Assembly (NCBI GenBank): GCA_963514005.1
Contig: OY740783.1
Span: forward strand, 129,828,001-129,892,000
Reading direction: 5' to 3'
Source: Raja brachyura
Taxonomy: Eukaryota
Length of the DNA: 64,000 nt
Shown: positions 9,389-52,515 of the stretch, piece by piece
Position numbering within the stretch: position 1 is the first letter of the stretch
How the letters are laid out: each line of letters starts with the position of its first letter
Program-made: the position numbers and the translations under genes
The notes under the pieces: model-generated
Databases searched by the model: none
The model's input: the letters and a program-made list of their open reading frames with translations, nothing else
What the model was told of the DNA's origin: nothing

Positions 9389-9778
9389 GCTTTTCGCACG
9401 ATGGTTGGACAATGTCCGGTGCTGATGAGGTATCTGCCATGGAAGGGGCCTCTGCTGTGTTGCCATGTACATTTACCTACCCACCCAATGGTGGCAACGT
9501 CACCGGCTCCGTGTTGTGGCACAACAAGTTGATGCCATCAGAGGCTCTCAGCCTTGTGTTTAAATGCACATATGCCGGTCCCGGCCGCCCCCGATGTGAT
9601 GAAGAGACACAGAAGGCCGGAGGAGGTCGGTTCATATTCGTGGGGAACCTCCCAGAGGGAGATGCCTCGATAATGGTGGAGCCGCTGAGAAAGAATGACA
9701 GGGATAAGTACCGGTGCCGCGTGGAGCTCACTGTTGGGGGTTTTCAATCTGTGATTTTCACGCAGCTGACTGTGGAAG
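9389..9778 (+). CDS. Ig V-set exon D1 of a Siglec-15-like receptor
   Basis: Pyrimidine tract + CAG acceptor, G|GTGAG donor, 390 nt, phase 1-1. Protein WTM..EVSA.EG..AVLPCTFTYP..W..VFKC..C..GRF..VGN...D.SI.VE.L...D...YRCRVEL aligns motif by motif with the Siglec-15 V domain as recalled, including the extra Cys pair and the F-strand Arg (CGC 9718-9720). Confidence 0.93.
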
Positions 9779-16454: not shown

Positions 16455-16874
16455 CGCCCGGCGGGAATGTCTCAGTGGTGACTGGGACTGTGGGAGGTTC
16501 GGCCACGTTACCCTGTGTGTATCAGCAACCCCAGCGTTACCGCAGCGTCCTCACGGTCACATGGATGAGGAAGGATCCCTACCGACACATCGTCACGTTC
16601 ACACACAAAGCTGATGGATCCTGGGCGGTGGAGAACGGAACAACTCGGTTCGAGCTGGTCGGGGACCCAGAGCTGGGAAACGTCTCAACCAGGATAAACC
16701 AGCTGAGTGTGGAGGACAGTGACGGCTACCAGTGTCTGGTGGAGTTCAGCAAAGGGGAAAACTACGATGCGACAACGTACGTCCACGCACATTTGAGGAG
16801 CAGCGTACACCCCCCGTACACCCATCAGTACCAGCGTGAGGTCCGGCTCCAGGTCCAGCTGCAGGTCACACCCG
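16455..16874 (+). CDS. Ig V-set exon D2 of the same receptor
   Basis: TCCTTCCCTCAG acceptor, G|GTAAG donor, 420 nt, phase 1-1. G.SATLPC, LTVTW, RFELVGDP, D..GYQCLVEF and VRLQV motifs; N-glycosylation sequons NVS, NGT, NVS. Confidence 0.92.
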
Positions 16875-19384: not shown

Positions 19385-19480
19385 TGACACCCATCCAAAC
19401 ATCAATATATATCCTGCGCATTCTTCTTCTCATCCTCGTGCTCTGCATTCTGTCTATCATTATCCTCTGGAATAAAGGAG
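19385..19480 (+). CDS. Transmembrane exon with intramembrane Arg
   Basis: CTCTTTTTTACAG acceptor, GAG|GTGAGT donor, 96 nt, phase 1-1; encodes VTPIQTSIYILRILLLILVLCILSIIILWNKG. Confidence 0.88.
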
Positions 19481-24500: not shown

Positions 24501-24700
24501 GGGAGTGGGTGAGGGGGGGAGTGGGTGAGGGGGGGGAGTGGGTGGGGGGGAGTGGGTGAGGGGGGTCGAGTGGGTGAGGGAGGGGCGAGTGGGTGGTAGG
24601 GGAGTGGGTGAGGGGGGGGAAGAGTGGGTGAGGGGAGAGAGTGTGAGGGGGGGAGAGTGGGTGAGGGGGGGAGTGGGTGAGGGGGGGAGTGGGTGAGGGG
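21597..24700. repeat. G-rich minisatellite, about 3.1 kb, unit about GAGTGGGTGAG(G)n, 15-20 bp
   Basis: Directly visible; the + strand is almost free of C. Confidence 0.98.
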
Positions 24701-24813: not shown

Positions 24814-24832
24814 TGTTTTCATCCGTAATGAG
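24814..24832 (+). CDS. Candidate cytoplasmic micro-exon (VFSSVMR)
   Basis: Long pyrimidine tract + CTGCAG acceptor, GAG|GTCAGT donor, in non-repeat DNA; phase 1 to 2. Confidence 0.55.
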
Positions 24833-24883
24833 GTCAGTCACATTTTCAAAAAGGTAATAGGGGACATGAATCCAAGGCTAAGC

Positions 24884-25533: not shown

Positions 25534-25603
25534 GAGTGCTGTGAATCCGGATGACACTGGCCGAGGGGAACAGCTGCAGAGTGCCACAAGACAGCTACCA
25601 TAG
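25534..25603 (+). CDS. Candidate cytoplasmic exon running into a Rex1 insertion ([22 protein letters not shown])
   Basis: TTCCTCTCTCTGTAG acceptor; open in phase 2, matching the preceding micro-exon; stop TAG at 25601-25603 lies in Rex1 sequence. Confidence 0.5.
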
Positions 25604-27989
25604 TGCCGGTGCCGACAAAGTCTAAAGTCACCAATCTGAATGACTATCGCCCGGTTGCCCTAACTCCAATACCAATGAAGTGCTTTGAAAGGCTGGTCCT
25701 CTCCCACATCAAATCCATTATTAAGCCATAATTAAGGAAGCCTTTTTGGAACAAAGTCAGCTCAGAGCTGGCTTCCATTGTTCCAAAATAATCAATTCTG
25801 CATTCGGTTTCAGTTTTATTTTGAATAATTTTGTAAAAATTTCAAAGATATCATTCCAGAATTTTTGGATTTTTATGCAAAAAACAAAGGAATGAGCTAT
25901 GGTTGCTTCTTGGGATAGACATTTATCACAAATTGGGGAGACATTTGTTTTGAATAATATAGTCTATGTAAGGTTTTAAATTGGATTAAAATATGTCTTA
26001 CATTGATCGAGCATTTATGCACATATAGCAAGTGTTTGTCCCAACTCTCTTTCAAGATTTTTATAGCTAGTTCTTGTTCCCAATCTCTTCTAATTCTATC
26101 AGATGATGATATTTCTATATTTAGGATAATATTATACGTATGATATTAAATTAGTTGAATCTGCCTTTATATTCGTTGCTTCGTCTAATAAGCCTGGAGA
26201 CAAATTTTGATATTCTTGTGTATATTTTTTCAAATAATCACGAATTTGAAAATATTTAATATATTGATTACTTTTCCGATTGTATTTAAGTTGTAGTTGC
26301 TGGAATGATAAGAAATTTCCATTTTCATACATATCTCCGAACGTTTTAATTCCTATTCTTTCCCAATATGTAAATGATTTATCAATACTAGAAGCTTTAA
26401 ACGAGGGATTATTAACCATAGGGGTGAGAAGTGATACGTTTTGTAATTTAAGGGTTAATTTTATTTGTTTCCAAATTCTAATAGTACTATGAATAATTGG
26501 ATTTTCACTATATATTGTTTTATTCAGTTTTGTTGGTGAGAGAAGGATCACTCCTATATTAAAAAGGGCGCAATCCTCTCTCTCCATTACTATCCAATCC
26601 GCCCACTGGGCAGAGTCGTCCAACAAGTGAATCACATTTTTGACGTTTGCTGCCCAATAATGATACCAAAAATTAGGGAGTGTTAATCCACCAAATTCTT
26701 TAGGTTTGCACAAATGTCTACTTTGAATTCTATGAGATTTATAGTCCCATATAAAATTTATAATATCAGAATCCAGTTTTGTTTTTAAACTTTTTAGATA
26801 AGTATATTGGTATTGATTGGAATAGATATAAAATTTGTGGTAAAAAGATAATTTTTATAGCATTTATTCGTCCTATTAAAAACATCGGAAGAGTTTTCCA
26901 AAACTTAATCAGGGTGTTTAATTTGTTACGTAGGGGCATATAGTTTGCATTAAATAAAGATTTATATTTGCTGGTAATTTCAATTCCCAAATATTTAACT
27001 GGGCCCGCACCTGTCCTCCACTATCACCCTGAGCACCGGCACACCACAGGGCTGTGCACTGAGCCCCATGTTCTACTCCCTCTTCACACACGACTGTGTT
27101 CCTGCATTCGACACCAACACCATAGTCAAGTCGGGCAGATCACCAACGGTGATGAAACAAAATACAGAGCGGTGGTGCAGAACCTGGCGGACTGGTGCTT
27201 ACTTAACAACTTGTCACTAAACACCTCCAAGACCAAGGAGCTGATTATCGACTTCAGGAGATCACGAAATGAGGAATACGCCCCAATCTCCATCTACGAG
27301 GACAGTGTGGAAAGAGTGCCCAGCTTTAAATTTCTGGGCACTCACATCTCAGAGGACCTCACATGGTCCACCAACACCGCTGCGCTGGTCAAGAAGGCAC
27401 AGCAACAACTGTGCTTCTTGAGAACATTGAAAAAGACTGGTCTGCCCCAGCAGCTGCTGACAACCTTCTACCGCTGCACGACAGAGAGCATACTAACGTA
27501 TGGCATCTCTGTGTGGTATCTCAGCTGCATGGAGGCGGAGAGCAGAGCTCTTCAGCGCGTCGTCCACAGAGCGCAGAGGATTATTGGGACACAGCTACCA
27601 GCCTTGGAGGTCATCTGCCACACACAGTGCCTCAGGAAAGCCGTCAGCATCCATAAAGACTCCTCACACTCTTGTAATGGACTGTTCGAACTACTTCCTT
27701 CCGGAAGGCGTTACAAGGCCTTCTACGCCCGCACCTCCAGACTCAGGAACAGCTTCATTCCCAGAGCTATAGCAGCTCTGAACCGGCCCTGCTGAGTGCC
27801 CCCCCCCACCCATGGACTGTCTCCCAAGGATGGTCACGTCGCACAGACACATCTGCACTTTAGTCTGTTCTGACTGTTTTACTGTTTTAATGTTCTTTTT
27901 ACAAACCATGTTCTCGGGGTATCTAAATCTAAATTGTAGTAGTTATTTAAGTTATGACATCGGATGTAAGCTGCATATATTATTATTAT
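25588..27989 (+). mobile_element. 5'-truncated Rex1 LINE containing an inverted L1 fragment
   Basis: [31 protein letters not shown] from 25588; RT C-terminal ORF to 27795 (LNTSKTKELIIDFR..LPSGRRY..RLRNSF); (TAT)n tail. Confidence 0.9.
25719..26998 (-). mobile_element. L1-clade LINE ORF2 internal fragment
   Basis: ORFs 26766-26990 (GRINAIK..LPQILYLFQ) and 26132-26713 (GGLTLPNF..YWAA) are homologous to ORF2 at 32418-36200. Confidence 0.88.
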
Positions 27990-31590: not shown

Positions 31591-32417
31591 ACACCGTTCC
31601 CACTTCTCAGTTCCTGTAGTCAGGATCAAACCCGACTCGGTAAGGCTGCAAGGCAGCAACTCTACTGCTGCACCATTGTGCCACCCATTTTTACTTTTAT
31701 ACATGAATATAATCAAGCCAAACCTAAACACTAAGGGTAAAGGGAAGAGAAAGATACCAGATTGCAGAATACAGTTTCTCAGTATTGTCGCGTATCAGTT
31801 CCATAAAAAGTGCAATGAGGTAGGTTGGAAGATCAGGACTGCACCCTAACTTATGGAAGGACCATTCAGAAGTCTGTAATTAAGGGCCACAGAAACAAAC
31901 AACCTGGGTCGTGGGGTGAATTCACAAGGCTCTGAGGGAAAGGATAAATTTAGTGGGAAGAGGGGCTAGCACCAACTCGATGGGTGGATTCCCTGCAAGG
32001 ATTCTTTTTTTTTTTTGTTTAATTTCTTTTATTAGAAGTAATCAATTTACAATAGTGTAAACATTGTACAAACATCAACTTAATTCCATATTTTTTTAAA
32101 TAACCCGTGAAAAGTTATTATCTTCTATTTTTTTAGGAAATAAAGATAAGGATAGAGTAGTTTTAAATCAATAAGAGAGTGATTAAATAATAATTTGATT
32201 ATATAAAAGAGAAAAAGAAAATAGAGAAAGGAAAAAAGGTTAACAAAAAGTGAAAAGATATTATATATATATATAAATGAAAATCAACAAAATATATTGT
32301 ATCTAAAACTATTACAAATAATAATATCAATGAAGACATGCCTATTAATCCTAGTATAAGAATATGTTATTCTCATCGTCCCGCAGGGTACCCGTCAAGC
32401 TGTGATGTCAAGAACAG

Positions 32418-35400
32418 CTACTTCTCTAGATACTGTATATATGGAGACCATATTTGTTCGAAGGTACTATATTTGTCCAATAGGACAAATCTGATTCTTT
32501 CTAATTGTAACGTCTCCAACATTTCTGCTGCCCACATTTTAATTGTGGGGGTTAATGTTCCCTTCCAAAATTTCAATATGATTTTTTTCCCTATTATCAA
32601 ACAGTAATCAAATAAATTTCTTTGATTTACTGTAAGTACCGAATTTGAATCCAAAATTCCAAGTATTAATAACTTTGGGTCTGGATCCAATCTAATTTTA
32701 AGAACCTCAGAAATAACCTTAAAATTTTCTGTCCAGTAGTGATTCAATTTGGGACATGTAGCAAAACTGTGTGTTAAATTTGCTTCTAAATTCTTATATT
32801 TATCACAAATTGAAGAGAGATTGGGAAAGATACTATTTAATTTAGTTTTTGAATAATGTAATCTATATAATACTTTGAATTGTATCAATGTATGTCTGGC
32901 ATTTAACGAACACCGATGTATTTGCTGTAAACTTTCTTCCCAATTTTCTTTTGTTATGGATAAACCAATTTCATTCTCCCATGCTTGACGATATGTTTCA
33001 GTTGTCGGATTCTCCTTATCCAAAATTATGTTATATATATAGGCTATTAATTTTTCTGTATTTGTGTGCAAATTAAACAAATCATCTAATAATCCTGGTA
33101 CTTTATTTTTATAATCTTGTGTGTTGGATTTTATATAATCTCTAATTTGTAAGTACCTAAACAAGTGTTGCGGAGACAATCTGTAGATATCTTGTAACTC
33201 TTGGAATAAAAGAAATTTTCCTTTTCTATAAAGGTGCTCTATCCTTTTAATTCCTAAATCATCCCAATGTCTAAACCCTCCATCCAATATAGAGGGTTTA
33301 AATAATGGGTTATTCGTTATTGGTAGTCTGAGTGAGAGATTATCTAGCTGTAAAGTCTTAACTATTTGTTTCCAAATACGTCTATTATTATAAATTATAG
33401 GGTTGTCCCTATAAATTTTTTTTTGTACTTCCTTTGGGGCAAAGAGAATCGAGCCTACATTATAAGGTAAACAATCTCCCTTTTCCATCTTTAACCACAT
33501 TGGTTCATGATCCATATTTACCCACCAAAAATTCATATTCTTAATCTGGACTGCCCAAAAATAATATAAAAAATTTGGAAGTGCTAGTCCTCCGTTTATC
33601 TTAGATTTACATAAATGTTTTTTACTTATTCTATGATTTTTATAATCCCAAATAAAACTATAAATAATATTATCTTTTTTTTTTTAAGTCTTTGGGAGAA
33701 AAAAAGGAATAGCCTGAAACAAATATAATAATTGTGGTAAAAACACCATCTTTATAGCATTTATTCTACCAATCATGGATATAGGAAGTGTTTTCCAATA
33801 CAGAATATTTTTTTTAAGTTTATCTAATAATAGAGGGTAATTAGATTTAATTAGTGAATTATAAGATTTAGTTACATTAATTCCTAAATATTTAAATTTA
33901 TCTGTAACTATTTTTAATGGATATTGTTGTAATATATTTAAATTAATTCCTGTTATAGGCATAATATCACTTTTGTTCCAATTAATCCTAAATCCTGAAA
34001 ATGTGCCAAATTTTGTTATAACATTAAACAGCTCAGGTATACTAATTTCCGGTTTTGTAAATTAAACCAAAACGTCATCTGCATATAAAGATATTTTGTT
34101 AGTTGTTGTGTCAGTATTATAGCCATAGATTTCAGGATCAGATCTGATTCTTTCCGCCAAAGGCTCTATCATCAAAGCAAATAGTAAAGGCGATAACGGA
34201 CATCCCTGTCTACATCCCCTAGAGAGCTTAAATTTAGCTGATAATATTTGATTAGTTAAGATTCTTGCCGTTGGATTCAAATATAAAATTCTTATCCATT
34301 TACAGAATCTATCCCCCAATTGAAACTTTTCCATTGTATTAAATAAATATAACCATTCCACCTGATCGAATGCCTTTTCTGCATCTAGCGATACAACTGC
34401 TAATTCCCTGTCCCGTACTCTTTTTGAATATATAATATTAAACAAGCGTCTGAGATTATGGGATGAATAGCGTTTTGGAATAAAACCTGTTTGATCATGA
34501 TGTATTAATTTAGAAATCACTAAACTTAATCTCTGAGATAAAACTTTAGTTAATATTTTTTGGTCTGTATTTAGAAGTGCGATCGCTCTATATGATCCTG
34601 GATCTTCCAAATCCTTATCTACCTTAGGAATGAGTGTAATTGTGGATTCGTTTAAAGATTCTGGTAATTTGCCTTGTTCATATGCATATCTATATACTGT
34701 ATATAATCTTGGGGAAATCAGGTCTAGAAATTTTTTATAAAATTCTGCATTCAGGCCATCAGGGCCCGCTGCTTTTCCATTCTTTAACGAACTAATTGAT
34801 TCTTCAATATCTTTTACTGTTATTTCAGCGTTTAACAAATGTCTACCTTCCTGATCTAGACTGTTAATTTGACACTCTTGTAGGAATGTTTCCATACCAA
34901 CTGTTTGTCCTGTTAATTTAGATGAATAAAGATTTTGATAATATTGTAGAAATCTATCATTAATATCTTTTGGTATCGTCAATATATTTCCATCCGCAGA
35001 TCTAATTCTATGTATCAATTTTTCATCTTCTAATTTTCTAAGTTGTCTTGCTAGCAGTTTTTGTGGTTTGTCTCCAAACTCAAAGTGCACTTGTTTGGTT
35101 TGTTGAAATAGTTTAATGACTTGGTTAGAATATATTTTATTTAGTCTATATTTTGCTATTGCAATTTTATTACTTAGCTCTTTTGAAGGGCGTTTTATGT
35201 TTTCACTATCTAGTTGTTTTATCTCATTTTCTAACCTTTGTTCCATCTTTCTATTTTCTTTATTAAAATAAGCCTGTGCTGATATTATTGCACCACGCAT
35301 AAATGCTTTAAATGTGTCCCAGAGTAACGATGGTGAAATCTCAGGTTTGTCATTAGTTTCAAAAAATAGTTTAATCTGTTCCATTACATGTTTACAACAG

Positions 35401-36204
35401 TCCTTATCCTTTAATATCTGGGGATTAAATCTCCAAGTAGTCGTTTTATTAAGTATATCTTTTAGTTTTATCTTGAATGTTAGTGGCGCATGATCTGAAA
35501 TAATAATATTATGATATTTTGCGTCATACGTAAAAGGTAGTAATTTTGAATCTATTAAAAAATAATCTATCCTAGAATAGGTTCCATATACGGGCGAAAA
35601 AAACGAGTATTCTCGTCCGGATGGATTATCTAGTCTCCAAATATCCTTAACATTCGATGTATTAATAAAAGAATTTATAAGTTTACTTGAATTAGAGGTA
35701 GCTTTCCTTTTTGTAGAAGACCTGTCTAGGTAGCTATCTAAGGTGCAATTAAAATCACCCCCAATAACTAAATTATATTGAGTGGAAATAGGAATATTAT
35801 TAAATATTTTCTTAAAAAATAGTGGGTTATCAAAATTAGGGGCATATATATTCACCAAAATTATTTTCTGTGAATATAATTCCCCTGTAATTATTACATA
35901 TCTACCCTCTTTGTCCTCTATTATAGAACTTTGTTTAAAAGGTATACCTTTACGGATAATTATTGCAACTCCTCTAGATTTGTGTATAAATGAAGAGTGA
36001 TATACCTTGGAAATCCATTTTGCTGTTAATCTATGTTGAGCATCTCTTTTAAGATGAGTCTCTTGAAGGAAGATCACGTCTGATTTCAATCTGTTCAACT
36101 GTGCTAGCACCTTTCCCCTTTTAATTGGTTCGTTAATTCCCTTAACATTCCAACTACAGAAGGTAATTCCACCCCCCCCCAGTCTTCACATTCATGTCTT
36201 GCAT
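32418..36204 (-). pseudogene. L1 ORF2 (APE endonuclease, RT, C-terminal Cys domain), disrupted
   Basis: SWNVKG, FLQETH, GGDFN, SRIDY, SDH; DAEKAFD, RQGCPLSP, YADD. In-frame TAA at 34062-34064 and 33684-33686; frameshift in the G-run at 36172-36180 near the start. Confidence 0.92.
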
Positions 36205-36813
36205 TTTACTGTTAGGGTGGTTTTTTTTGGAGTAGCCTTCTCGACCCCTCCAGCCCAGCGGTATACCCAAACGCCAACCCGATGAGAATTTCTATCCTCA
36301 GTAATCCATATACATATCTTCTTAAAGCAATTATACAATATCGCTCATAACTACATTCATATAATATATAACATAAAATCAAATATTTAATATATAAGAA
36401 AAAATACAAAGTGTAATTAAAAAAAGAGAAAAGGGTGTTAACAGGGTGCCCAGAAAAAAAAGAAACTACACTGATATATTGTGTAGTGTGCATTAGTGAG
36501 AGCCACACTAGCGTGGCTATTAATCTACTGACTTCCGTTTTTTAAAAAAAAGATGTTAAATGTTCCAGCTCCTGTCTATAATGCTGTGTATATTGGGGTG
36601 GGGTACTAACTTTAAGTACTTAGTAATTATTTCTATTATTCATATTACTAATTACTAGTTATTAATTTCTATTATAATTAATATTATAATAAGTAATACT
36701 ATATTAGGGGGACAATTGAAATTTTACTAATTAATACCAAACTATAACAACATGTCCATTATTGCCCCTCTTTCTCAATGAATAATTCATAACCGCAGGT
36801 CGGTGATAAAAGT

Positions 36814-37916
36814 TCATTCTTCTTCTCCTTCCTCGCTTGCTTCTTCTTCTGCTTCCTCTTCTGCCTTCTTCTGTATGTCTCGAGCGAATTCCAGTGCTTT
36901 GGTATGCTTAACAAAACGGTATTCCTTGTTGTCGTAGGTCACTCTCAATGTTGCTGGGTACATCAGACCATATCTGAGATCCTTTATATCCTTTATATTC
37001 CGAAGAATACCTCTTGTTTCTGTGAATAAAGATCTTCTCTTAGCCACTTCAGCCGGGTAATCTCTGAAGATACTGATGTTATCTCCTTCGTATTTCAAAT
37101 TCCTCTTTCTTATTATTATCTTCATCATTTCTTCAAAGACATGATCGTGGGCCACCTTTACAATCATTTGTCTTGGCGGTGCACCTTTCCCAGGGACACG
37201 TCTTAAAGCCCTGTGAGCACGGCCCAACAGGGGTTCTTGATCCAAATCCAGAATGTCCTTTAGGAGTTTTGCAGCAAATTTTCGCGGGTCTTGATTTCCT
37301 TCCCGCCCCTCGGTCAATCCTACGATACGCAAATTCTTACGTCTTTGTCGTCCCTCCAGATCAATACATTTCTCGTTTATTTTATGTAGTAGCTCTGAGA
37401 GACATTTATTCTCGTCGCGTAGCTTCTCACTTTCCTTAGCACTTGTTACAGCAAAGTTAGTCAATTCTTTAATTGCATCATTGTGTTGGTCAAGTAAGAT
37501 TGAGATAGGATCTATCTTCGCATCCAGCATTTGTTCCGTCTCAGCAATCTTGTCGTTTACCTCAGCCATCCGGTTTTGAAACTCAGCATCCGCCTTTATT
37601 TTCCATTCATTCATCATAATCTTTACCGTTTCTGTAGCTTCTTTTTTTAGTTCTTCTTTAATTCTCTCTTGAGACTCCTGGATATCCGTTCTTAACAGTT
37701 TTATTTCATCTTTGTATTCCTTCTTCAAATCTTTCATTTCTTTCATCAGTTTCTTCATTTCACCAAGCAAAGAATTTTTAAGTTCTTCCATTTCACTTTT
37801 TCTTTGTGAAATCTCTTCCTGGGAGGCAGCCAAACTCAAGCCCGAGGCTTTGAGGCCTGCCTCCCTTCTTGGACCTTTTTTTGTCGCGGGGGGGGGGGGG
37901 GGGAGGAGGAATGCAT
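36814..37916 (-). CDS. L1 ORF1 (coiled coil + RRM/CTD)
   Basis: ORF 36814-37839 contains DLEGRQRRKNLRIVGL.E, RAHRA, FRDY and YPATLRV. The likely ATG at about 37916 is out of frame across a 16-nt homopolymer. Confidence 0.88.
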
Positions 37917-38648
37917 TTTGAATTTCTTACCGAAGTCGCGCGCCTGATGACATCACGCAGCTTGCAATTGCACCGGAGCCGTTTAGAATCGCTCTCCTGC
38001 GGTAAGTACCCCCGATTTTTTTCAGATTTTTGTGGAGCTGATCTGGCGCTGTTCTCTCTCAGAACATGGCGCCACCGGAAGTCCCCTCCCTGCAAGGATT
38101 CTATGATGTGGAACTCAGTGCAACAGACGGTGATGGAGGCCAAGTCATTGGCTATTTTTAAGGCGGAGATCGACAGTTTCTTGATTAGTGAGGGTGCCAA
38201 AGGTTATGGGGAGAAGGCAGGAGAATGGGATTCAGAGGGAAAGATAGTTCAGCCATGATTGAATGGTGCAGTAGCCTCGATGGGCCAAATGGCCTAATTC
38301 TGCTTCTATCACATGAAATTATGATACTCATGAGAGGAATACATTGCGTAAATGCAGTCTTTTACCCCAACTGGGGAATCAAGGACCAGAGGATGTAGGT
38401 TTAAGTTGAGAGGGGAAGGACTTAATAGGAATCTGTGGGGAAATTTTTATACATAGAGGGTGCTGGGTGTGTGGAACGAGCTGCCAGAGGAGGTAGCTAC
38501 TATCATAATGTTTAAAAAAACATTTGCACAGGTACATGGATAGGAAAGGTGGGACTAGTGTAGATGGGGCATGTTGGTTGGTGTGGGCAAGTTGGGCCGA
38601 AGGGCCTGTTTCCAGTCTGTATCATTCTAAGACTGATTGGTGTTACAG

Positions 38649-39742: not shown

Positions 39743-39772
39743 GTGAGCAGAAACCTGAAGCTGCAAATTCAG
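39743..39772 (+). CDS. Candidate micro-exon (GEQKPEAANS)
   Basis: TTCTCCTTTACTTCCAG acceptor, CAG|GTGAAA donor, 30 nt, phase 1-1. Confidence 0.42.
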
Positions 39773-42530: not shown

Positions 42531-42800
42531 GGATCCTTGTCTCTGATTACTCTGATTACTCAGTAAACTGTATTACTCTCCATCTTAATGCAGAATTGTG
42601 GTCACTGTTGCCCAAGGGGCTTTGCACTAAATGGTGTTCCCATTATTTTGTATCTGTACACTGTGGCTGGCTTGATTTATGTAGAGTATTTTTGCTGACT
42701 AGATAGCACGCCACAAAAATGCTTTTCACTGCACCTTGGTACAGTACATGTGCCAATAAAATAAACTGAACATTAGCACTGTTTGGAATTGCTCCTGCAG

Positions 42801-42841
42801 ACACTGTGAACCCATCATCAGCTGGTCAAAACCTCATACAG
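42801..42841 (+). CDS. Candidate micro-exon (DTVNPSSAGQNLIQ), phase 1 to 0
   Basis: TTGCTCCTGCAG acceptor, CAG|GTAGTG donor (weak). Confidence 0.3.
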
Positions 42842-44127
42842 GTAGTGTTATGTTCCAATGCCATAGTTGTGTTTGTAAGAAACATTCCATTATCGAAAAT
42901 CATGTTACAAAGATAACAAAGGACAAAGGACATTTATTGTCACTTAAACCAATTGGTGTAGTAAAATTTGAGTTGCCATTTGCAACACACCAATAAAAAT
43001 AAAACACAGCATTAAAGAATTTAACATTAAACATAAAAACATCCCCCCACAATGGTTCCCACTGTGAGGGAAGGCGGCAAAGTCCAGTCCTCTTCCTCTT
43101 GTTCCATGTCAATGACAGCTTCAAATGTTAATAACAACATTATTTTTCCTGCAAGATTTAAGAAAATAAATATTTTCAATAACAGTAAGGTTATTTTTAT
43201 TACTGCGAGCTAACAATACTAAAGTATCACATTGTTTAAAAGGGTATCATTGCACAAGTGTCAATGGAAGCGATTGCTTGTCAATTTCTATGTCCTCCCA
43301 CGGTGAAACGGACAGACTGTGTTCTTAAGTGGCAATTACCACAGGGAGAATACATGGAAACAGTTTTTCCCCCTTAACTTTTTTTCCCCAAGCCAGCTTT
43401 TTTTTTTGCTTTACAATTTCCAAAGTAGTGTTTAAATGGTTCTCTAGTTCTTAAAATTGCATTATAACTAATTTAGTCAGCTGAATGCGTAGTGATTCTG
43501 GTCATCGCTAATATTATATCCAATTTGTGTATTGGAACCACGCGCAGTAGCACATTCACCTGAAATAGAAACAAAACTAGAAAATGCTGGAAAAGCTCAG
43601 AACTAGTTTCTGAGGAAGGGCGCAGTTAAAGGAAAGGTTCTCTTTCCACAGATGCTGCCTGACCTGTTGAGTTTTTTTCCAGCATATTCTATTTTTGTTC
43701 CAAATTTCCAGAATCTGAAGCTATTTAGAAGAGTTTAGTTTAAAGATAACACAGATTAACACATCAACCTAATTGCCCCCATCTATGCTAATCCTACCTG
43801 CCTCCCTCTAAACCTTTCCTATCCATGTACCTAATATCTTTTATCCAAATATCTTTTAAATGTTGTTATAGTACCAGCTGCAACTAACTCTTCTGGCAAC
43901 TTGTTCCATACACCCACCAACCTCTGTGTGAAAGAATTGCCCTTCAGGGTCATATTAAACTTATGTCCTCTGGTTCTTGATTCAGAGTTGGTATTAGGAG
44001 GATGACAAATATTTTGGGACATTATTCACTTTAGACAATAGACAATAGATGCAGTAGAAGGCCATTTGGCCCTTCGAGCCGGCACTGCCATTCAATGTGA
44101 TCATGGCTGATCATCCACAATCAGTAC

Positions 44128-44420
44128 TTTAGAGATACATGTGAAAACAGGCCCTGCGGCCCACCGAGTCCGCGCTGGCCAGCGATCCCTATACACTAGC
44201 AAAGTCCTACACCCACGAGGGAAAATTTACAATTTTAACAATTGAATATACAAACCTGTATGTTTTTGGAGTGGGAGGAAACCGGAGCACCCGGAGAAAA
44301 CCCACGCGGTCACAAGGAGAACATACAAACTCCGTACAGATGGCACCCTTAGTCAGGATCGAACCTGGGTCTCTGGCGCTGTGAGGCAGCAGCTCCACCC
44401 GCTGCACTACTGTGCCGTCC
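44128..44420 (-). mobile_element. V-SINE
   Basis: Reverse-complement SINE, nearly full length. Confidence 0.85.
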
Positions 44421-44539
44421 CTGCTGTTATTTCTGTTTGTAATGTTTTATAATTAATATAACCTCCTGTGTGGGAGGGAATCGATGGGACTATGCGACTG
44501 ACAGACATAACGGAAGAGTCTTCTCCTCTGCCTCTACAG

Positions 44540-44608
44540 GTGAGAAACCCTTTGAGTGCCCGAACTGCCACGAAAGCTTTGCCAGGAACAGCACTCTGAA
44601 GTGCCACA
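44540..44608 (+). pseudogene. ZNF131: ZNF131-like zinc-finger exon, 5' part only
   Basis: TCTTCTCCTCTGCCTCTACAG acceptor, then GEKPFECPNCHESFARNSTLKCH; human ZNF131 as recalled is GEKPFECPNCHERFARNSTLKCHLTAC. Cut off by repeat sequence at about 44610. Confidence 0.8.
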
Positions 44609-45024
44609 AGAGTAACTCAGCGGTTCAGGCAGCATCTGTGGAGAACATGGAGAGGTGAAGTTTCGGGTTGGGCCCCATCTTCAGATTAATTGCAGGGGTG
44701 GGAGGAAAGAAAGCTGGAAGAGTGGAGGGCAGGACAAAGCACAGCAGGTCATAGTCAAATAAAGAAACTGCAGAGGGCAGCGAACAGTGCTGGTGAGGCA
44801 GAAGGGAGAACTCTCTCTCCCTCTCCCCCCCTCAATCTCTCTCCCCCCTCTCTCCTCCCTCTCTCTCGCCTCCATCTCTCTCTCTCCCCCATCTCTCGCC
44901 CTCCCCTTCCTCTCTCTCTCCCTCTCTCTCTGTCCAATTCACTCTCCCTCTCCCTCTCCCTCTCCCTCTCTCTCATTACCTCTCTCTCCCCCCCCCCCCC
45001 CCACCACACCCAACCTGTACAACC

Positions 45025-45580
45025 TGTGGAGAACATGGATAGGTGACGTTTCACAGAGTGCTGGAGTAACTCAGCGGGTCAGGCAGCATCTGTGGAGAAC
45101 ATGGATAGGTGACGTTTCACAGAGTGCTGGAGTAACTCAGCGGGTCAGGCAGCATCTGTGGAGAACATGGATAGGTGACGTTTCACAGAGTGCTGGAGTA
45201 ACTCAGCGGGTCAGGCAGCATCTGTGGAGAACATGGATAGGTGACGTTTCACAGAGTGCTGGAGTAACTCAGCGGGTCAGGCAGCATCTGTGGAGAACAT
45301 GGATAGGTGACGTTTCATAGAGTGCTGGAGTAACTCAGCGGGTCAGGCAGCGTCTGTGGAGAACATGGATAGGTGACGTTTCATAGAGTGCTGGAGTAAC
45401 TCAGCGGGTCAGGCAGCATCTGTGGAGAACATGGATAGGTGACGTTTCACAGAGTGCTGGAGTAACTCAGCGGGTCAGGCAGCATCTCTGGAGAACATGG
45501 ATAGGTGACGTTTCACAGAGTGCTGGAGTAACTCAGCGGGTCAGGCAGCATCTCTGGAGAACATGGATAGGTGACATTTC
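45025..45580. repeat. 66-bp tandem repeat, about 8.4 copies
   Basis: Unit TGTGGAGAACATGGATAGGTGACGTTTCACAGAGTGCTGGAGTAACTCAGCGGGTCAGGCAGCATC. Confidence 0.96.
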
Positions 45581-46192
45581 GGGTCAGGCCCCATCGTCAG
45601 ATTAATTGCAGGGGTGAGAGGACAGAAAGCTGGAAGAGTGGAGGGCAGGACAAAGCACAACAGGTCATAGGCAAATAAAGAAACTGCAGAGGCTGGTTTT
45701 TATCGAAGATAGACATGGAGTGCTGGAGCTACTTAGCGGCTCAGACGGAGATGCTATCTGACCCGCTGAATTACCAGCACTTTGTATCTATCTTAGGTGG
45801 TAGGTGAACACAGGCATGGGGATTTAATAATTACATTCCTTAGTTTAGTTTAGATATACAGCGCGAAAACAGGTCCTTTGACCCACCGAGTCCGCACCGA
45901 CCAGCGATCCCCGCCCACTAGCACGATCCTACACACTAGGGACAATTTGCAATTTTTACCAAAGCCAATTAACATATGAACCTGTCCGTCTTTGGAATGT
46001 GGGAGGACACCATTCATTGATATTACAAGGATAGTATGGCGCAACACAACTTTGGATTTAAATCTAATTACAGGTTGGGTGAGGTGGGTGGGGAAGGATG
46101 AGAGGCAGGTATATCACCACTTTTTGCTCTGTTTTTCTTTTTGTCCATTTATTTATTTTTTCTATTCCTCTCTTCTTTCTTTCTTTTATTCA

Positions 46193-46345
46193 CTCGGCGA
46201 GCTGCGGCAACATGTGATGGAGAAGCACGGGGAGTCCGAGCCAGCAGCGGCTGAGGACGAGCTGACCGAGATCGTGGTGCCGGTGGTGATGATCGACACT
46301 GAGGCCATGGAGGGCGAGACCATCATCGAGCAGGTGACGGTGTAG
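46193..46345 (+). pseudogene. ZNF131: ZNF131-like terminal coding fragment (last half-finger + acidic tail + stop)
   Basis: LGELRQHVMEKHGESE...TEAMEGETIIEQVTV*, versus recalled human GNELRRHLSDAHNISE...TEPVTSMTIIEQV. High GC3 codon usage contrasts with the flanks. Confidence 0.68.
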
Positions 46346-47073
46346 CTGACTCCCCACTGCCCGCGTTTGAGGGGGAGTAGGGCATTTGGTGCGAGGCTTT
46401 GGGCAGGGGACGGTCGGACCCTTCAACGCCCAGCCCGACCGACCAGGGCAGAGAACAGCGGGCCGCGTCTCCCTCCCCACCCGCTTCTTTGGACTTCTTT
46501 CGACAAACCGGCGGTCGGCTGAGGCGGAATGCAATCAAAGTCTCCGTGCCTCCTGTGCGTTAAGGAGATGTTGGAGCAGCCGAGGGTGGGATGTCCCCTC
46601 TCCGACCAGCCGGCATCGCTCGGCACATGAACTCCACCGGCACAAAGGCCGCCGCCGGGAATGGAAAAGAAACAGCAACAGCAATGTGGTTTTTGTTGGC
46701 CGGCAGCAGAACGATCGAGCCCCTTGCACTGGGAGCCATCGCCCGCGGATTAACACCGTACACACTGCTGGCGGGCGGGCGGGTTTGTGCCACTGAAGCA
46801 CCACTGGGCATCCATCCCGTGTTGAACTGTTGGGCTTGAGATCTAGGGCCTTTTGCCACTGCCTGAGGCTTCATCAAAGCCAGTCTGCGCTATCAGGTGG
46901 CCGTGCCCTGAAGCGGTGATTCCCCTGGACTGTATGACATCGGGGGAGTGGGATGTCGGACACATCGCAGAAAGGACTGCACTTCTACTGGAGTTCCAGT
47001 CGCCACCTCCTTGTGACTTCTTGTAAATGTGCGTAGAGAATGCAGGGCGGTTTAATCCACTTACAGGCACGTA

Positions 47074-47079
47074 AATAAA
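47074..47079 (+). promoter_or_regulatory. Candidate polyadenylation signal
   Basis: AATAAA about 730 nt after the stop at 46345, ending a non-repetitive UTR-like stretch. Confidence 0.5.
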
Positions 47080-47187
47080 AAACACTGTCTGATTCTGTAG
47101 AATCCAGTGCGCTACGTCTTTGATTTGACAGCGTTTTCCCACAGATCCTCCAGCTCAGCGACCATCCGCTGCCACCGCCCAGCTCTT

Positions 47188-48219: not shown

Positions 48220-50617
48220 GCGCGCTGTCACCATCCCCGCCCCCCCCCCCCCGCGCTGTCACCATCCCCCCCCCCGCGCTGTCACCACCCCCCCCCCCCG
48301 CGCTGTCACCATCCCCCCCCCGCGCTGTCACCATCCCCCCCCCGCGCTGTCACCATCCCCCCCCCCGCGCTGTCACCATCACCCCCCCCCCCCGCGCTGT
48401 CACCATCACCCCCCCCGCGCTGTCACCATCCCCCCCCCCGCGCTGTCACCATCACCCCCCCGCGCTGTCACCATCACCCCCCCCGCGCTGTCACCATCAC
48501 CCCCCCCGCGCTGTCACCATCACCCCCCCCGCGCTGTCACCATCACCCCCCGCGCTGTCACCATCCCCGCCCCCCCCCCGCGCTGTCACCATCCCCCCCC
48601 GCGCTGTCACCATCCCCGCCCCCCCCCGCGCGCTGTCACCATCCCCCCCCCCGCGCTGTCACCATCCCCCCCCCCGCGCTGTCACCATCACCCCCCCGCG
48701 CTGTCACCATCCCCCCCCCCGCGCTGTCACCATCACCCCCCCCGCGCTGTCACCATCCCCCCCCCGCGCTGTCACCATCCCCCCCCCCGCGCTGTCACCA
48801 TCCCCCCCCCGCGCTGTCACCACCCCCCCCCCGCGCTGTCACCATCCCCCCCCCGCGCTGTCACCATCCCCCCCCCGCGCTGTCACCATCCCCCCCCCCC
48901 GCGCTGTCACCATCCCCCCCCGCGCTGTCACCATCCCCCCCCCCCGCGCTGTCACCATCACCCCCCCCCCGCGCTGTCACCATCACCCCCCCCCCGCGCT
49001 GTCACCATCCCCCCCCCGCGCTGTCACCATCACCCCCCCCCCCGCGCTGTCACCATCCCCCCCCCCCCCGCGCTGTCACCATCCCCCCCCCCGCGCTGTC
49101 ACCATCCCCCCCCCCGCGCTGTCACCATCACCCCCCCCGCGCTGTCACCATCACCCCCCCCGCGCTGTCACCATCACCCCCCCCGCGCTGTCACCATCCC
49201 CCCCCCCCCCGCGCTGTCACCATCCCCCCCCCGCGCTGTCACCATGCCGCCCCCCCCGCGCTGTCACCATCACCCCCCCCGCGCTGTCACCATCCCCCCC
49301 CCCGCGCTGTCACCATCCCCCCCCCCCGCGCTGTCACCATCCCCCGCCCGCGCTGTCACCATCCCCCCCCCCGCGCTGTCACCATCCCCCCCCCGCGCTG
49401 TCACCATCACCCCCCCGCGCTGTCACCATCACCCCCCCCCCGCGCTGTCACCATCCCCCCCCCCGCGCTGTCACCATCCCCCCCCGCGCTGTCACCATCA
49501 CCCGCCCCCCCCCGCGCTGTCACCATCCCCCCCCCCGCGCCGTCACCATCCCCGCCCCCCCCCCCCCGCGCTGTCACCATCCCCCCCCCGCGCTGTCACC
49601 ATCCCCCCCCCCGCGCTGTCACCACCCCCCCCCCGCGCTGTCACCATCCCCCCCCCGCGCTGTCACCATCCCCCCCCCCGCGCTGTCACCATCCCCCCCC
49701 GCGCTGTCACCATCACCCGCCCCCCCCCGCGCTGTCACCATCCCCCCCCCCGCGCTGTCACCATCCCCCCCCCCGCGCTGTCACCATCCCCCCCCCGCGC
49801 TGTCACCATCACCCCCCCCCGCGCTGTCACCATCCCCCCCCCCGCGCTGTCACCATCCCCCCCCCCGCGCTGTCACCATCCCCCCCCCCGCGCTGTCACC
49901 ATCCCCCCCCCGCGCTGTCACCATCCCCGCCCCCCCCCGCGCTGTCACCATCCCCCCCCCCGCGCTGTCACCATCCCCGCCCCCCCCCGCGCTGTCACCA
50001 TCCCCGCCCCCCCCCGCGCTGTCACCATCCCCCCCCCCGCGCTGTCACCATCCCCGCCCCCCCCCGCGCTGTCACCATCCCCGCCCCCCCCCGCGCTGTC
50101 ACCATCCCCCCCCCGCGCTGTCACCATCACCCCCCCCCCGCGCTGTCACCATCCCCCCCCCCGCGCTGTCACCATCCCCCCCCCCCGCGCTGTCACCATC
50201 CCCGCCCCCCCCGCGCTGTCACCATCCCCCCCCCCGCGCTGTCACCATCCCCCCCCCGCGCTGTCACCATCCCCCCCCCGCGCTGTCACCATCACCCCCC
50301 CCCCGCGCTGTCACCCCCCCCCGCGCTGTCACCATCCCCCCCCCGCGCTGTCACCATCCCCCCCCCCCGCGCTGTCACCATCCCCCCCCCGCGCTGTCAC
50401 CATCCCCCCCCCCGCGCTGTCACCATCCCCCCCCCCGCGCTGTCACCATCCCCCCCCCCCGCGCTGTCACCACCCCCCCCGCGCTGTCACCATCCCCCCC
50501 CCGCGCTGTCACCATCCCCCCCCCCGCGCTGTCACCATCCCCCCCCCGCGCTGTCACCATCCCCCCCCCCCCCGCGCTGTCACCATCCCCCCCCGCGCTG
50601 TCACCATCCCCCCCCCC
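48220..50617. repeat. C-rich/CpG-rich minisatellite, about 2.4 kb, unit CGCGCTGTCACCAT(C)n, about 20-25 bp
   Basis: Directly visible; invariant core with variable C-run. Confidence 0.98.
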
Positions 50618-50862: not shown

Positions 50863-52515
50863 GAAGACAGATGCTGCTAAGGGCATTCTTATCATACCCG
50901 ACTGGCCTACGTAGCCATGGTATCCGGTGGTCCTTGACATGATCAGTCAACCTTGGGTCCTCTTAGAGGGTTGCCCACAATTGGTCACTAACCCTGTGTC
51001 AGGGGAACCACATCCCTGCCACAGTCATCTAAACTTATTGGCTTGCAGGTTCTGAACAGGCCATTACTGCGGTATGGCCTATCATCTAGAACCATGGATA
51101 CCATCGGAGCGTCATGCCGGGAGTCCACCAGGCGGCAATATCTCACACACATCCGGAAATGGGAAACCTTCTGCAGCCGCTCCCACATTGCATATGACTC
51201 CGTAACCATCACCAACGTATTGGTATTCCTGGCGGGGTTGCACCATGACGAACACCTCAGCTACAGTGCCATCAACAGCGCCAGGAGTGCGCTGTCATTC
51301 TACCTCAACATTGAGGTAGGATCCAACAGGCTGGTGTCCAGACTCATGCGGGGAATATTCAATTCCAATCCGCCCAGACCGCGTTATAACGTCACCTGGG
51401 ATATTGGGAAGGTATTAACCCTGCTCAGGACGTGGTCGCCCATGGAGGGGCTTGAGCTGGACAAACTCACCCTGAAGCTGGTGATGTTACTGGCACTGAC
51501 TTCAGCGCAGAGGGTACAGACACTCCACAAGGTCAGGATCGACAGGATGATCTCTACCCCTGCGGAAGTAATCTTCTTCATAGATGAATTACTCAAGCAG
51601 CATAGACCTGGGTTCACAGGGCTGCAGCTGAAGTTCCCGGCATAGTCCGCTGTTGCAAGGCTATGTTTAGCCGCCCATATCCGTCACTATGTGAAAGTGA
51701 TGAGAAAACTGAGGGGAATGGAGAAATACTTGCTCATCAGCCACAAGAAACCTCACCATAGAGTGACGGTCCAGACGATCTCCAGATGGCTCAGGATCGT
51801 CTTGGGTGAGTCAGGTATTGACACTAATGTTTTCAAATCCCATTCCACCAAGGTTGCATCAACGTCGGCGGCAAGGGTCATGGAGGTGCCCATGGACCGT
51901 ATTCTTGCCACAGCAGGATGGCGAATGAAGCCACCTTCCAGTGGTTCTACAATAAACCTGTTGCCGCTCCTGTACAGTTCGCGGAGGCCATGCTGAATGC
52001 AGGTCAAGAACGTGCAGATGTCCCCTAGTGAGGGTTTTTTTCTTTTATTGTTAACAAATATTGTTATTATTTTTCAGTACAAGCAGTCTGGAAAGTTGAT
52101 TACTCCTATCCATCCTTATAAGTGGTGTGTGACAGCATGGACATGGTCCAGGGCATGGAATCACAGAGCTTTGAAGTCCTCACGAAGTCACTCACGTGAC
52201 TCCGAAATGAAATAGTAAGATTAAACGAGAACTTACCAGTTCGAAGGTTGATCTTTATTTTATGAGGAGTTGCGATGAGGGACTTCGTGCCCTCCGCTCC
52301 AAACCCTCGATCATAAATCAACTGGTAATTAGAGTCTCTTCAATCTTACTATAACAAGTCATTTCTCTGTTGTTGTTTCTGTGATTCCACACCGCTACTT
52401 TGAAGTATGTCGCGCATGCGTGCTGGCGGGTTCTTCACGAAATCCCTCATCGCAACTCCTCATAAAATAAGGATCAATCTTCGAACTGGTAAGTTCTCGT
52501 TTAATCTTACTATTT
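50863..52515 (+). mobile_element. DIRS-type tyrosine-recombinase retrotransposon, 3' portion
   Basis: GILIIPDWPT*PWYP (end of the upstream pol/MT ORF), overlapping YR ORF, and an 80-bp inverted repeat (52210-52289 / 52436-52515, 3 mismatches) matching the ICR/right-terminus arrangement. Confidence 0.88.
51043..51996 (+). pseudogene. DIRS tyrosine recombinase, inactivated
   Basis: STRRQY..W..FC, SARSALS, LLALTSAQR, HSTK (normally HSTR), AGW, then TFQWFYNKP after a frameshift; TAG at 51643-51645. Confidence 0.88.

What the first reader, a model, noticed from the sequence alone, without database searches (positions are those of the whole stretch)
44540..47100. Displaced ZNF131 fragments positioned to donate a new 3' end to the immune receptor (possible chimeric gene)
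Seen: a partial zinc-finger exon with an intact phase-1 acceptor (44540), and a terminal coding piece with stop, about 730 nt of UTR and AATAAA. Both are on the receptor's strand, just after its last candidate exons, with no BTB or other ZNF131 exons in the window. The 44540 acceptor matches the phase of the TM and micro-exons (giving GEKPFECPNCHESFARNSTLKCH + repeat-derived KSNSAVQAASVENMER*). A pyrimidine tract of about 70 nt plus a weak GAG acceptor at 46201 is phase 0, matching exon 42801-42841 and giving an acidic tail ending EQVTV*. The retained intron acceptor implies DNA-level duplication rather than retrocopying. Inference: exon shuffling between a transcription factor and a surface receptor.
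Basis: partly seen in the sequence, partly recalled or inferred. Interest (0 to 1): 0.72.

Follow-up and report, generated by a model that had tools for sequence, protein, structure and literature searches.

The report
Decaying ZNF131 copy beside truncated receptor
A broken second copy of the tail end of the ZNF131 gene sits where a neighbouring immune-receptor copy lost its last exon; it is likely leftover from a recent local duplication that adds no protein to the receptor, though it could supply the end of the receptor's mRNA.

Summary
The ZNF131 pieces are real, but they are one duplicated block (42667 to at least 47170), not two exons. The complete ZNF131 gene lies 250 kb upstream on the same strand and runs into an assembly gap inside its last exon. 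The copy is about 2% diverged and rearranged. A 175-bp deletion removed the exon-5 donor and the finger's fourth zinc ligand. A 1,244-bp deletion removed the true last-exon acceptor, so the 'GAG acceptor' is a Glu codon placed behind a repeat's T-tract. 'Exon 42801-42841' is ZNF131 intron 4. The block replaces the last exon of a two-V-domain receptor (A). A has also lost both other tyrosine-motif exons and carries a LINE-derived stop at about 25601, 19 kb upstream. An intact paralogue (B) follows. A ZNF131-derived peptide needs two constitutive exons skipped. Contigs from one run hold both versions of the 3' UTR, which argues against misassembly. The mRNA-like contigs carry parent letters. The receptor-side junction was not tested with reads. 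Verdict: most likely decaying duplication debris, not exon shuffling. Left open: 44540 is the best downstream acceptor, so the block could give a tail-less receptor its 3' UTR and poly(A) site.

The parts
9389..9778 (+). Receptor A exon V1 (Ig V-set). The leader exon lies outside the window at G000:C3:129823838-129823898.
   Evidence: Pfam V-set E=2.7e-7; homologues; splice sites
16455..16874 (+). Receptor A exon V2 (Ig V-set)
   Evidence: Pfam V-set E=4.9e-13
19385..19480 (+). Receptor A transmembrane exon, phase 1 to 1, with an Arg near the start of the hydrophobic stretch that B and the inhibitory-type homologues lack
24814..24853 (+). Cytoplasmic micro-exon c1, phase 1 to 2
25534..25583 (+). 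Cytoplasmic exon c2, interrupted by an insertion; in-frame TAG at about 25601; its donor is displaced to 27997
   Evidence: A-versus-B alignment breaks at 25583 and resumes at 27989
25584..27988 (+). Young sense-strand LINE fragment (about 98% to many genomic copies) with a nested second repeat, inserted in c2; five AATAAA/ATTAAA hexamers inside
39743..39772 (+). Cytoplasmic micro-exon c4, phase 1 to 1; the last receptor exon left in A. Both TYASI exons of B have no counterpart in A.
42627..42666 (.). Junction between receptor-paralogous intron (homology to B ends near 42626) and the ZNF131 copy; not tested with reads
42667..44539 (+).
   Evidence: 29 mismatches in 1,929 aligned bases over 42667-44607
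44540..44607 (+). First 68 of 131 nt of ZNF131 exon 5; two substitutions (one Arg to Ser); cut by a 175-bp deletion that removed the donor and the finger's last Cys
44608..46194 (+). Rearranged intron-5 remnants with a 66-bp tandem array (45024-45580) and a repeat T-tract ending at the deletion junction
46195..46345 (+). Last part of ZNF131's final coding exon with its stop. Its acceptor and first 110 nt were removed by a 1,244-bp deletion with a 1-bp shared base at 46195.
   Evidence: 138 of 138 identical to the parent up to the gap
46346..47098 (+). Copy of the ZNF131 3' UTR, AATAAA at 47074; mRNA-like contigs end at 47098 and 47102
47099..47170 (+). ZNF131 downstream flank; the copy extends at least this far and its right end is unknown because the parent lies in a gap
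   Evidence: run X12 record 16 carries parent-type letters up to 47170

Best explanation
Window 42667 to at least 47170 is a rearranged, about 2%-diverged copy of the last two exons and 3' UTR of the ZNF131 gene 250 kb upstream; it likely arose at the junction of a local duplication and likely adds no protein to the receptor. Shown: the copy stands in place of the last (ITIM) exon of receptor A; two internal deletions destroyed the exon-5 donor and the last-exon acceptor; receptor A stops earlier, in c2 (LINE insertion) or just after c1, and lacks all three tyrosine-motif exons of its intact paralogue B. Inferred: ZNF131 and this receptor were ancestral neighbours on one strand, so a tandem duplication with one break in ZNF131 intron 4 and one in the receptor's last intron gives the order ZNF131 - truncated receptor | ZNF131 3' part - full receptor. 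A later exchange with another family member probably made B's 3' half more divergent. The promoterless ZNF131 piece has been decaying since.
For: Parent gene with 6 coding exons and an open frame at C3:129610290-129624823. Only two copies of each piece were found in the genome (2 of 2 candidates; 2 of 40 scored). Copy versus parent: 56 substitutions in 2,727 aligned bases, 2.05%; A versus B upstream of the TM exon: 588 of 21,682, 2.71%. Deletion junctions mapped. Neighbouring RefSeq accession numbers for ZNF131 and a receptor homologue in Amblyraja radiata (XP_032874360 and ...362), Hypanus sabinus (XP_059830204 and ...205) and, less tightly, Leucoraja erinacea (XP_055488071 and ...062-065) suggest ancestral adjacency (indirect). 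In-silico isoforms: 3 of 8 tested that keep c1 and avoid the pseudo-exon stop before ZNF131 sequence; ZNF131 residues appear only when c1 and c2 are both skipped. No chimera on record: 0 of 27 receptor homologues match the ZNF131 C-terminus below E=0.85, and 0 of 24 ZNF131 proteins match the receptor at E<=0.01. The 2,302-nt contig of run X2 leaves the window at 46195 with 1,401 letters upstream (parent CDS to that base: 1,340), ends at 47098 and differs from the window by 13 letters and 13 gap letters: it fits the spliced parent mRNA. In human duplicates, fusion transcripts of 3'-truncated copies are common but rarely alter the ORF (PMC6169893, passages).
Against: A versus B is 6.71% divergent downstream of the TM exon (380 of 5,662), three times the ZNF131 copy's divergence, so a single tandem event does not explain everything. 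The predicted second copy of the ZNF131-receptor spacer is not in the assembly: a gap and about 190 kb of 18-bp satellite lie there. The terminal coding piece is 138 of 138 identical to the parent, and the 44540 acceptor and poly(A) signal are intact; at 2% divergence this is weak. The receptor-side junction and the 44607 junction have no read test, and no listed contig bridged 46195 in the window's form (one search shows only part of its records). Contigs drop rare variants, so a minor chimeric RNA is not excluded.
Confidence: 0.75

Rival explanations
1. Fusion transcript without a fusion protein. Receptor A skips its broken c2 and splices c1 (with or without c4) to 44540, using the ZNF131 block as a 2.56-kb terminal exon with ZNF131's poly(A) site. 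The product would be a 336-aa two-V-domain receptor with a 14-residue tail, no ITIM and a TM Arg: a possible activating or decoy partner of B.
For: 44540 is the top acceptor of 459 downstream of c4. The poly(A) site is used in the parent (contigs end at 47098 and 47102). Both routes give the same 336-aa product; the stop is in the last exon or 26 nt before the last junction, so it would escape decay by the 50-nt rule (recalled). A's leader-to-c1 frame is open with canonical splice sites. A and B ectodomains differ at 16 non-synonymous and 3 synonymous sites, 7 and 0 in V2 (small counts, no significance test). Similar ectodomains with divergent tails is the paired-receptor pattern (PMC3210942, abstract).
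Against: No contig with window letters among those laid from the mRNA-like run X2 (weak). c2 keeps its acceptor and the LINE offers five nearer poly(A) hexamers; 20 AATAAA lie between c2 and 47074. The exon-5 remnant has moderate cryptic donors at 44654, 44747 and 44792. The family already has Lys-TM short-tailed members, and the Arg is one base change from the Pro of the homologues.
Confidence: 0.15
2. One reading: functional exon shuffling that gives the receptor a ZNF131-derived cytoplasmic tail (finger remnant via 44540, or acidic tail via 42801-42841 and 46202).
For: Frames are open on paper: TM-44540 gives 361 aa, TM-c4-44540 371 aa, TM-c4-42801-46202 393 aa. 44540 is a real, strong phase-1 acceptor.
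Against: All need c1 and c2 skipped. The finger lacks its fourth ligand and ends in repeat sequence. The 46202 acceptor scores 3.4 against 6.1-15.5 for real sites. 36 pseudo-exon pairs as good as 42801-42841 occur in the window, and that sequence is intronic in the parent. No homologue carries such a tail.
Confidence: 0.04
3. Assembly artefact or misplaced haplotype: the window holds the real 3' end of ZNF131 (missing at the gap), or a deleted allele joined wrongly to the receptor.
For: The parent ends at a 200-N gap inside the last exon and the UTR occurs only once in the assembly. Run X12 (another sample, same organism code) showed only parent letters at depth 4-5. The left junction is untested.
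Against: Run X1 holds both versions: window-identical records over 46380-46516 and 46549-47170, a parent-type record leaving at 46195, and parent letters at 46378-46486. The block differs from the parent by 56 substitutions, two deletions and an internal rearrangement, which mis-joining does not create. No gap lies between receptor A and the block. X1 may be data behind the assembly, so it is not fully independent.
Confidence: 0.06

Closest known systems
Incomplete segmental duplicates with truncation or fusion fates (human SRGAP2B/C, NOTCH2NL-NBPF, ROCK1P1, GTF2IP1; PMC6169893, passages read)
   Same: A 3'-truncated copy that keeps its promoter side lies upstream of a 5'-truncated, promoterless copy of another gene; fusion transcripts are possible and rarely alter the ORF.
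   Different: Here no transcript is shown; the donor piece has lost one donor and one acceptor, and the upstream gene has its own earlier stop.
ZNF131 (ZBTB35; alias recalled), BTB-zinc finger transcription factor
   Same: 95-100% identical exon by exon to skate ZNF131 P0002 at the parent locus; the window holds parts of exons 5 and 6.
   Different: No promoter, BTB or intact finger in the copy; two deletions and an internal rearrangement.
Paired activating/inhibitory Ig receptors with homogenised ectodomains (Siglec-11/16, PIR, KLRC; PMC3210942 abstract, PMC5701461 search listing)
   Same: A and B share 95% or more of the ectodomain but differ in TM and tail; B has three tyrosine motifs, A has none and has a TM Arg.
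   Different: A lost its tail by a LINE insertion, deletions and the ZNF131 block; expression and adaptor coupling are untested; the family's usual short-tailed form uses a different, Lys-containing TM exon.
Cartilaginous-fish two-V-domain receptors annotated as Siglec-15-like, sialoadhesin-like or uncharacterised (e.g. A. radiata LOC116971354); skate MDIRs (PMC3031540, passages)
   Same: V1 is 46-73% identical to 21 cartilaginous-fish homologues; best solved-structure match of P0015 is Siglec-15, E=4.7e-8, then pIgR and Siglec-8.
   Different: Identity with MDIRs was not tested; sialic-acid binding was not tested.

Membership tests
Functional chimeric gene by exon shuffling | Donor segment from another gene, in the same orientation, downstream of the host's exons | tested here: met
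Functional chimeric gene by exon shuffling | Open frame from host into donor under default splicing | tested here: not met
   Stop in c2 or right after c1; in-frame only if c1 and c2 are skipped
Functional chimeric gene by exon shuffling | Donor supplies an intact domain | tested here: not met
   Finger lacks the last ligand; Pfam zf-C2H2 19.9 bits, below the 25.2 cut-off; last exon lost its two fingers' 110 nt
Functional chimeric gene by exon shuffling | Transcript joins host and donor exons | tested here: inconclusive
Functional chimeric gene by exon shuffling | Conserved in relatives or under purifying selection | tested here: not met
   0 of 27 receptor and 0 of 24 ZNF131 homologues are chimeric; limited sensitivity and no close relative's genome
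Unprocessed partial duplicate (5'-truncated pseudogene fragment) | Intact parent elsewhere | tested here: met
   last 11 codons and UTR fall in a gap but are seen in contigs
Unprocessed partial duplicate (5'-truncated pseudogene fragment) | Introns retained, promoter and 5' exons absent | tested here: met
Unprocessed partial duplicate (5'-truncated pseudogene fragment) | Disabling lesions | tested here: met
   175-bp and 1,244-bp deletions through splice sites
Activating member of a paired receptor family (receptor A) | Ectodomain close to an inhibitory partner, no ITIM, short tail | tested here: met
Activating member of a paired receptor family (receptor A) | Charged TM residue that couples to FcR-gamma or DAP12 | tested here: inconclusive
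   Arg present near the N-terminal edge of the TM; coupling untested; the principle is stated in PMC4016189 (passage)
Activating member of a paired receptor family (receptor A) | Expressed at the cell surface and signals | not testable with these tools
   needs cDNA and cell assays
MDIR family of skates | Sequence membership with MDIR2-4 | not tested
   MDIR sequences were not among the fetched proteins

The most novel reading that the evidence does not exclude
An inhibitory skate Ig receptor copy has been turned into a tail-less, Arg-TM activating or decoy partner, and its mRNA now ends in a captured transcription-factor 3' end: ZNF131's exon-5 acceptor, UTR and poly(A) site. A minor isoform skipping c1 and c2 could add ZNF131-derived residues to the tail (that protein-level version at most about 0.04).
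Probability: 0.15. Interest if true: 0.55.

Novelty: new member of a known kind. Interest (0 to 1): 0.25.

Why it matters
Most likely it is ordinary debris of a local duplication in a fast-evolving immune-receptor cluster. It has two practical uses: it warns annotators that the only assembled ZNF131 3' UTR belongs to the broken copy, not the gene, and it dates the truncation of receptor A to about 2% divergence. If the open reading holds, it is a snapshot of an inhibitory receptor becoming a tail-less partner in a cartilaginous fish, with a borrowed mRNA end, and one 3' RACE would test it.

Tried and rejected
No RNA holder was listed on record for 46190-47100 (21 runs listed, two guessed RNA); this says nothing on expression. 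X2 and X4 were judged mRNA-like only from contig geometry. The receptor-side junction (about 42627-42666) and the 44607 junction remain without a read test. No listed contig bridged 46195 in window form, but 38,900 records were not shown. Retrocopy rejected: introns are present. 'Paralogues share the pieces' rejected: only two copies found, although 20 V2-like matches exist (20 of 79 scored). A single tandem duplication as the whole story rejected: 2.7% versus 6.7% divergence split. Cryptic in-frame donors in c2 before the stop score 1.9 or less against 6.7-10.3 for real donors. A pattern flag for a finger in 1 of 27 receptor tails (P0025) was not supported by BLAST. The splice matrix was trained on 12 acceptors and 13 donors of this region, so scores are rough and training scores are inflated. 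Literature: 'ZNF131, chimeric, duplication' gave 3 papers, none on this by title or abstract start; the MDIR search gave 1. Only these searches were made, so absence from print is not established. No supplements were read. No earlier scan notes near this place. No folding was done: it would not change the verdict.

Full report
Observation. The last-exon peptide of the parent finds 8 proteins among 58 candidates, all named ZNF131 of cartilaginous fishes, the best 95% identical to a skate protein. The host is therefore skate-like.

The parent gene. Both pieces have exactly one other match in the genome, about 250 kb upstream on the same strand (2 of 2 candidates; 2 of 40 scored matches cover the coding piece). 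There lies a complete ZNF131: six coding exons, canonical splice sites, open frame, C3:129610290-129624823. It runs into a 200-N gap inside the last exon, so the assembly's only ZNF131 3' UTR is the one in the window.

The copy is one damaged block. Window 42667-46332 maps to parent 129620661-129624823 with 56 substitutions in 2,727 aligned bases, 2.05%. It includes 1.9 kb of intron 4, so it is a DNA-level copy. A 175-bp deletion at 44607 removed the last 63 nt of exon 5, with the finger's fourth ligand and the donor. A 1,244-bp deletion at 46195 removed the true last-exon acceptor and the first 110 nt of that exon. Part of intron 5 is present twice around a 66-bp array. The 'GAG acceptor' is a Glu codon of the parent, now behind the T-tract of a multi-copy repeat; it scores 3.4, rank 57 of 459 AG sites, against 9.2 for the deleted true acceptor. 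'Exon 42801-42841' is identical to a stretch of the parent's intron 4, has no counterpart in 51 homologous proteins, and 36 equally good pseudo-exon pairs occur in the window. The splice matrix is small (12 acceptors, 13 donors) and rough.

The receptor. The window's gene (A) is a two-V-domain type I receptor. An intact paralogue (B) follows at C3:129897307-129942208 with 11 exons and a 440-aa frame: leader, V1, V2, TM, c1, c2, two TYASI exons each followed by a c4 exon, and a last exon with a VIYAAV ITIM. A keeps leader, V1, V2, TM, c1 and one c4. Its c2 is split by a 2.4-kb insertion of a young LINE (about 98% to many copies) that adds an in-frame stop and moves the donor to 27997. Both TYASI exons are missing, and the last exon is replaced by the ZNF131 block: homology to B ends near 42626 and the copy starts at 42667.

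What could be made. Eight splice routes were translated. c1 into c2 stops at 358 aa. c1 into c4 or into 44540 stops at once, at 336 aa, because c1 ends in phase 2. ZNF131 residues appear only if c1 and c2 are both skipped (361, 371 or 393 aa); the remaining two routes read ZNF131 out of frame.

Reads. On 45600-47170 (four runs, all contigs), X1 holds window-identical records (46380-46516, 46549-47170) and parent-type letters and a parent-type record, so both versions exist as sequence; X1 may be data behind the assembly. X2 (same sample) has a 2,302-nt contig that lies on 46195-47098 from its base 1,402, with 13 other letters and 13 gap letters. The parent CDS up to that base is 1,340 nt, so the contig fits the spliced parent mRNA with a short 5' UTR. 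X4 (another organism) has a like contig, 2,259 nt, ending at 47102. Neither run is on record as RNA. Neither shows window letters, but contigs drop rare forms. X12 shows only parent letters at low depth. The receptor-side junction has no read test.

Mechanism. Neighbouring accession numbers suggest that ZNF131 and this receptor are adjacent in other skates and rays (indirect). A tandem duplication breaking in ZNF131 intron 4 and in the receptor's last intron gives exactly the observed order. A versus B upstream of the TM exon (2.71%) is close to the ZNF131 copy's 2.05%, and A/B homology ends at the edge of a 190-kb satellite array. Against a single event, A versus B is 6.71% downstream of the TM exon. 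B's TM region is closer to a third paralogue at C3:133.38 Mb (5.1%) than A's is (7.0-7.4%), which fits a later exchange in B. This history is inferred.

Comparison with what is known. This is the known outcome of incomplete duplication. In human duplicates, fusion transcripts from 3'-truncated copies are common but rarely alter the ORF (PMC6169893, passages). No chimeric protein is on record among 27 receptor and 24 ZNF131 homologues. A and B resemble a paired set with similar ectodomains and divergent tails (PMC3210942, abstract). A has an Arg near the start of its TM, and charged TM residues couple such receptors to FcR-gamma or DAP12 (PMC4016189, passage). A's ectodomain frame is open with 16 non-synonymous and 3 synonymous differences from B (not tested for significance). 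Expression and coupling are unknown.

Verdict. Observation partly confirmed; protein-level exon shuffling unlikely (about 0.04). Best reading: a decaying partial duplicate at a duplication junction (0.75). Open reading: the block serves as terminal exon and poly(A) donor for a tail-less receptor (0.15). Interest 0.25.

Noticed in passing
G000:C3:129630738-129818906 (L022-L040): About 190 kb of an 18-bp satellite, in blocks up to 92 kb, lies between ZNF131 and receptor A; A/B homology stops at its edge.
   Followed up: partly
G000:C3:129624824-129625023 (L021:4824-5023): Assembly gap inside ZNF131's last exon: the gene's stop codon and 3' UTR are unassembled, so 3' reads would map to the broken copy in the window.
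   Followed up: yes
window 19385-19480: Receptor A's TM carries an Arg where homologues have Pro or Leu; with loss of all tyrosine motifs this resembles an activating paired receptor.
   Followed up: partly
window 16455-16874 versus C3:129925628-129926047: V2 of A and B differ by 7 non-synonymous and 0 synonymous changes in the counted part, most clustered in one loop after the second Cys.
   Followed up: partly
G000:C3 128.90-129.00 Mb, 133.39-133.49 Mb; C987; C1459: Further members of this two-V receptor family, some with stops; relatives include Lys-TM short-tailed and ITIM-bearing forms.
   Followed up: no
window 32015-37926 (- strand): Young L1-like element with endonuclease and RT domains, about 99% identical to a copy at C3:129949720-129953783 in the opposite orientation.
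   Followed up: partly
window 50992-51993: Fragment of a tyrosine-recombinase-type element (Phage_int_SAM_4 hit), probably DIRS-like (recalled).
   Followed up: no
window 21600-24700 and 48243-50617: Long G-rich (17-bp) and C-rich (23-bp) tandem arrays; the first expands A's TM-c1 intron relative to B.
   Followed up: no
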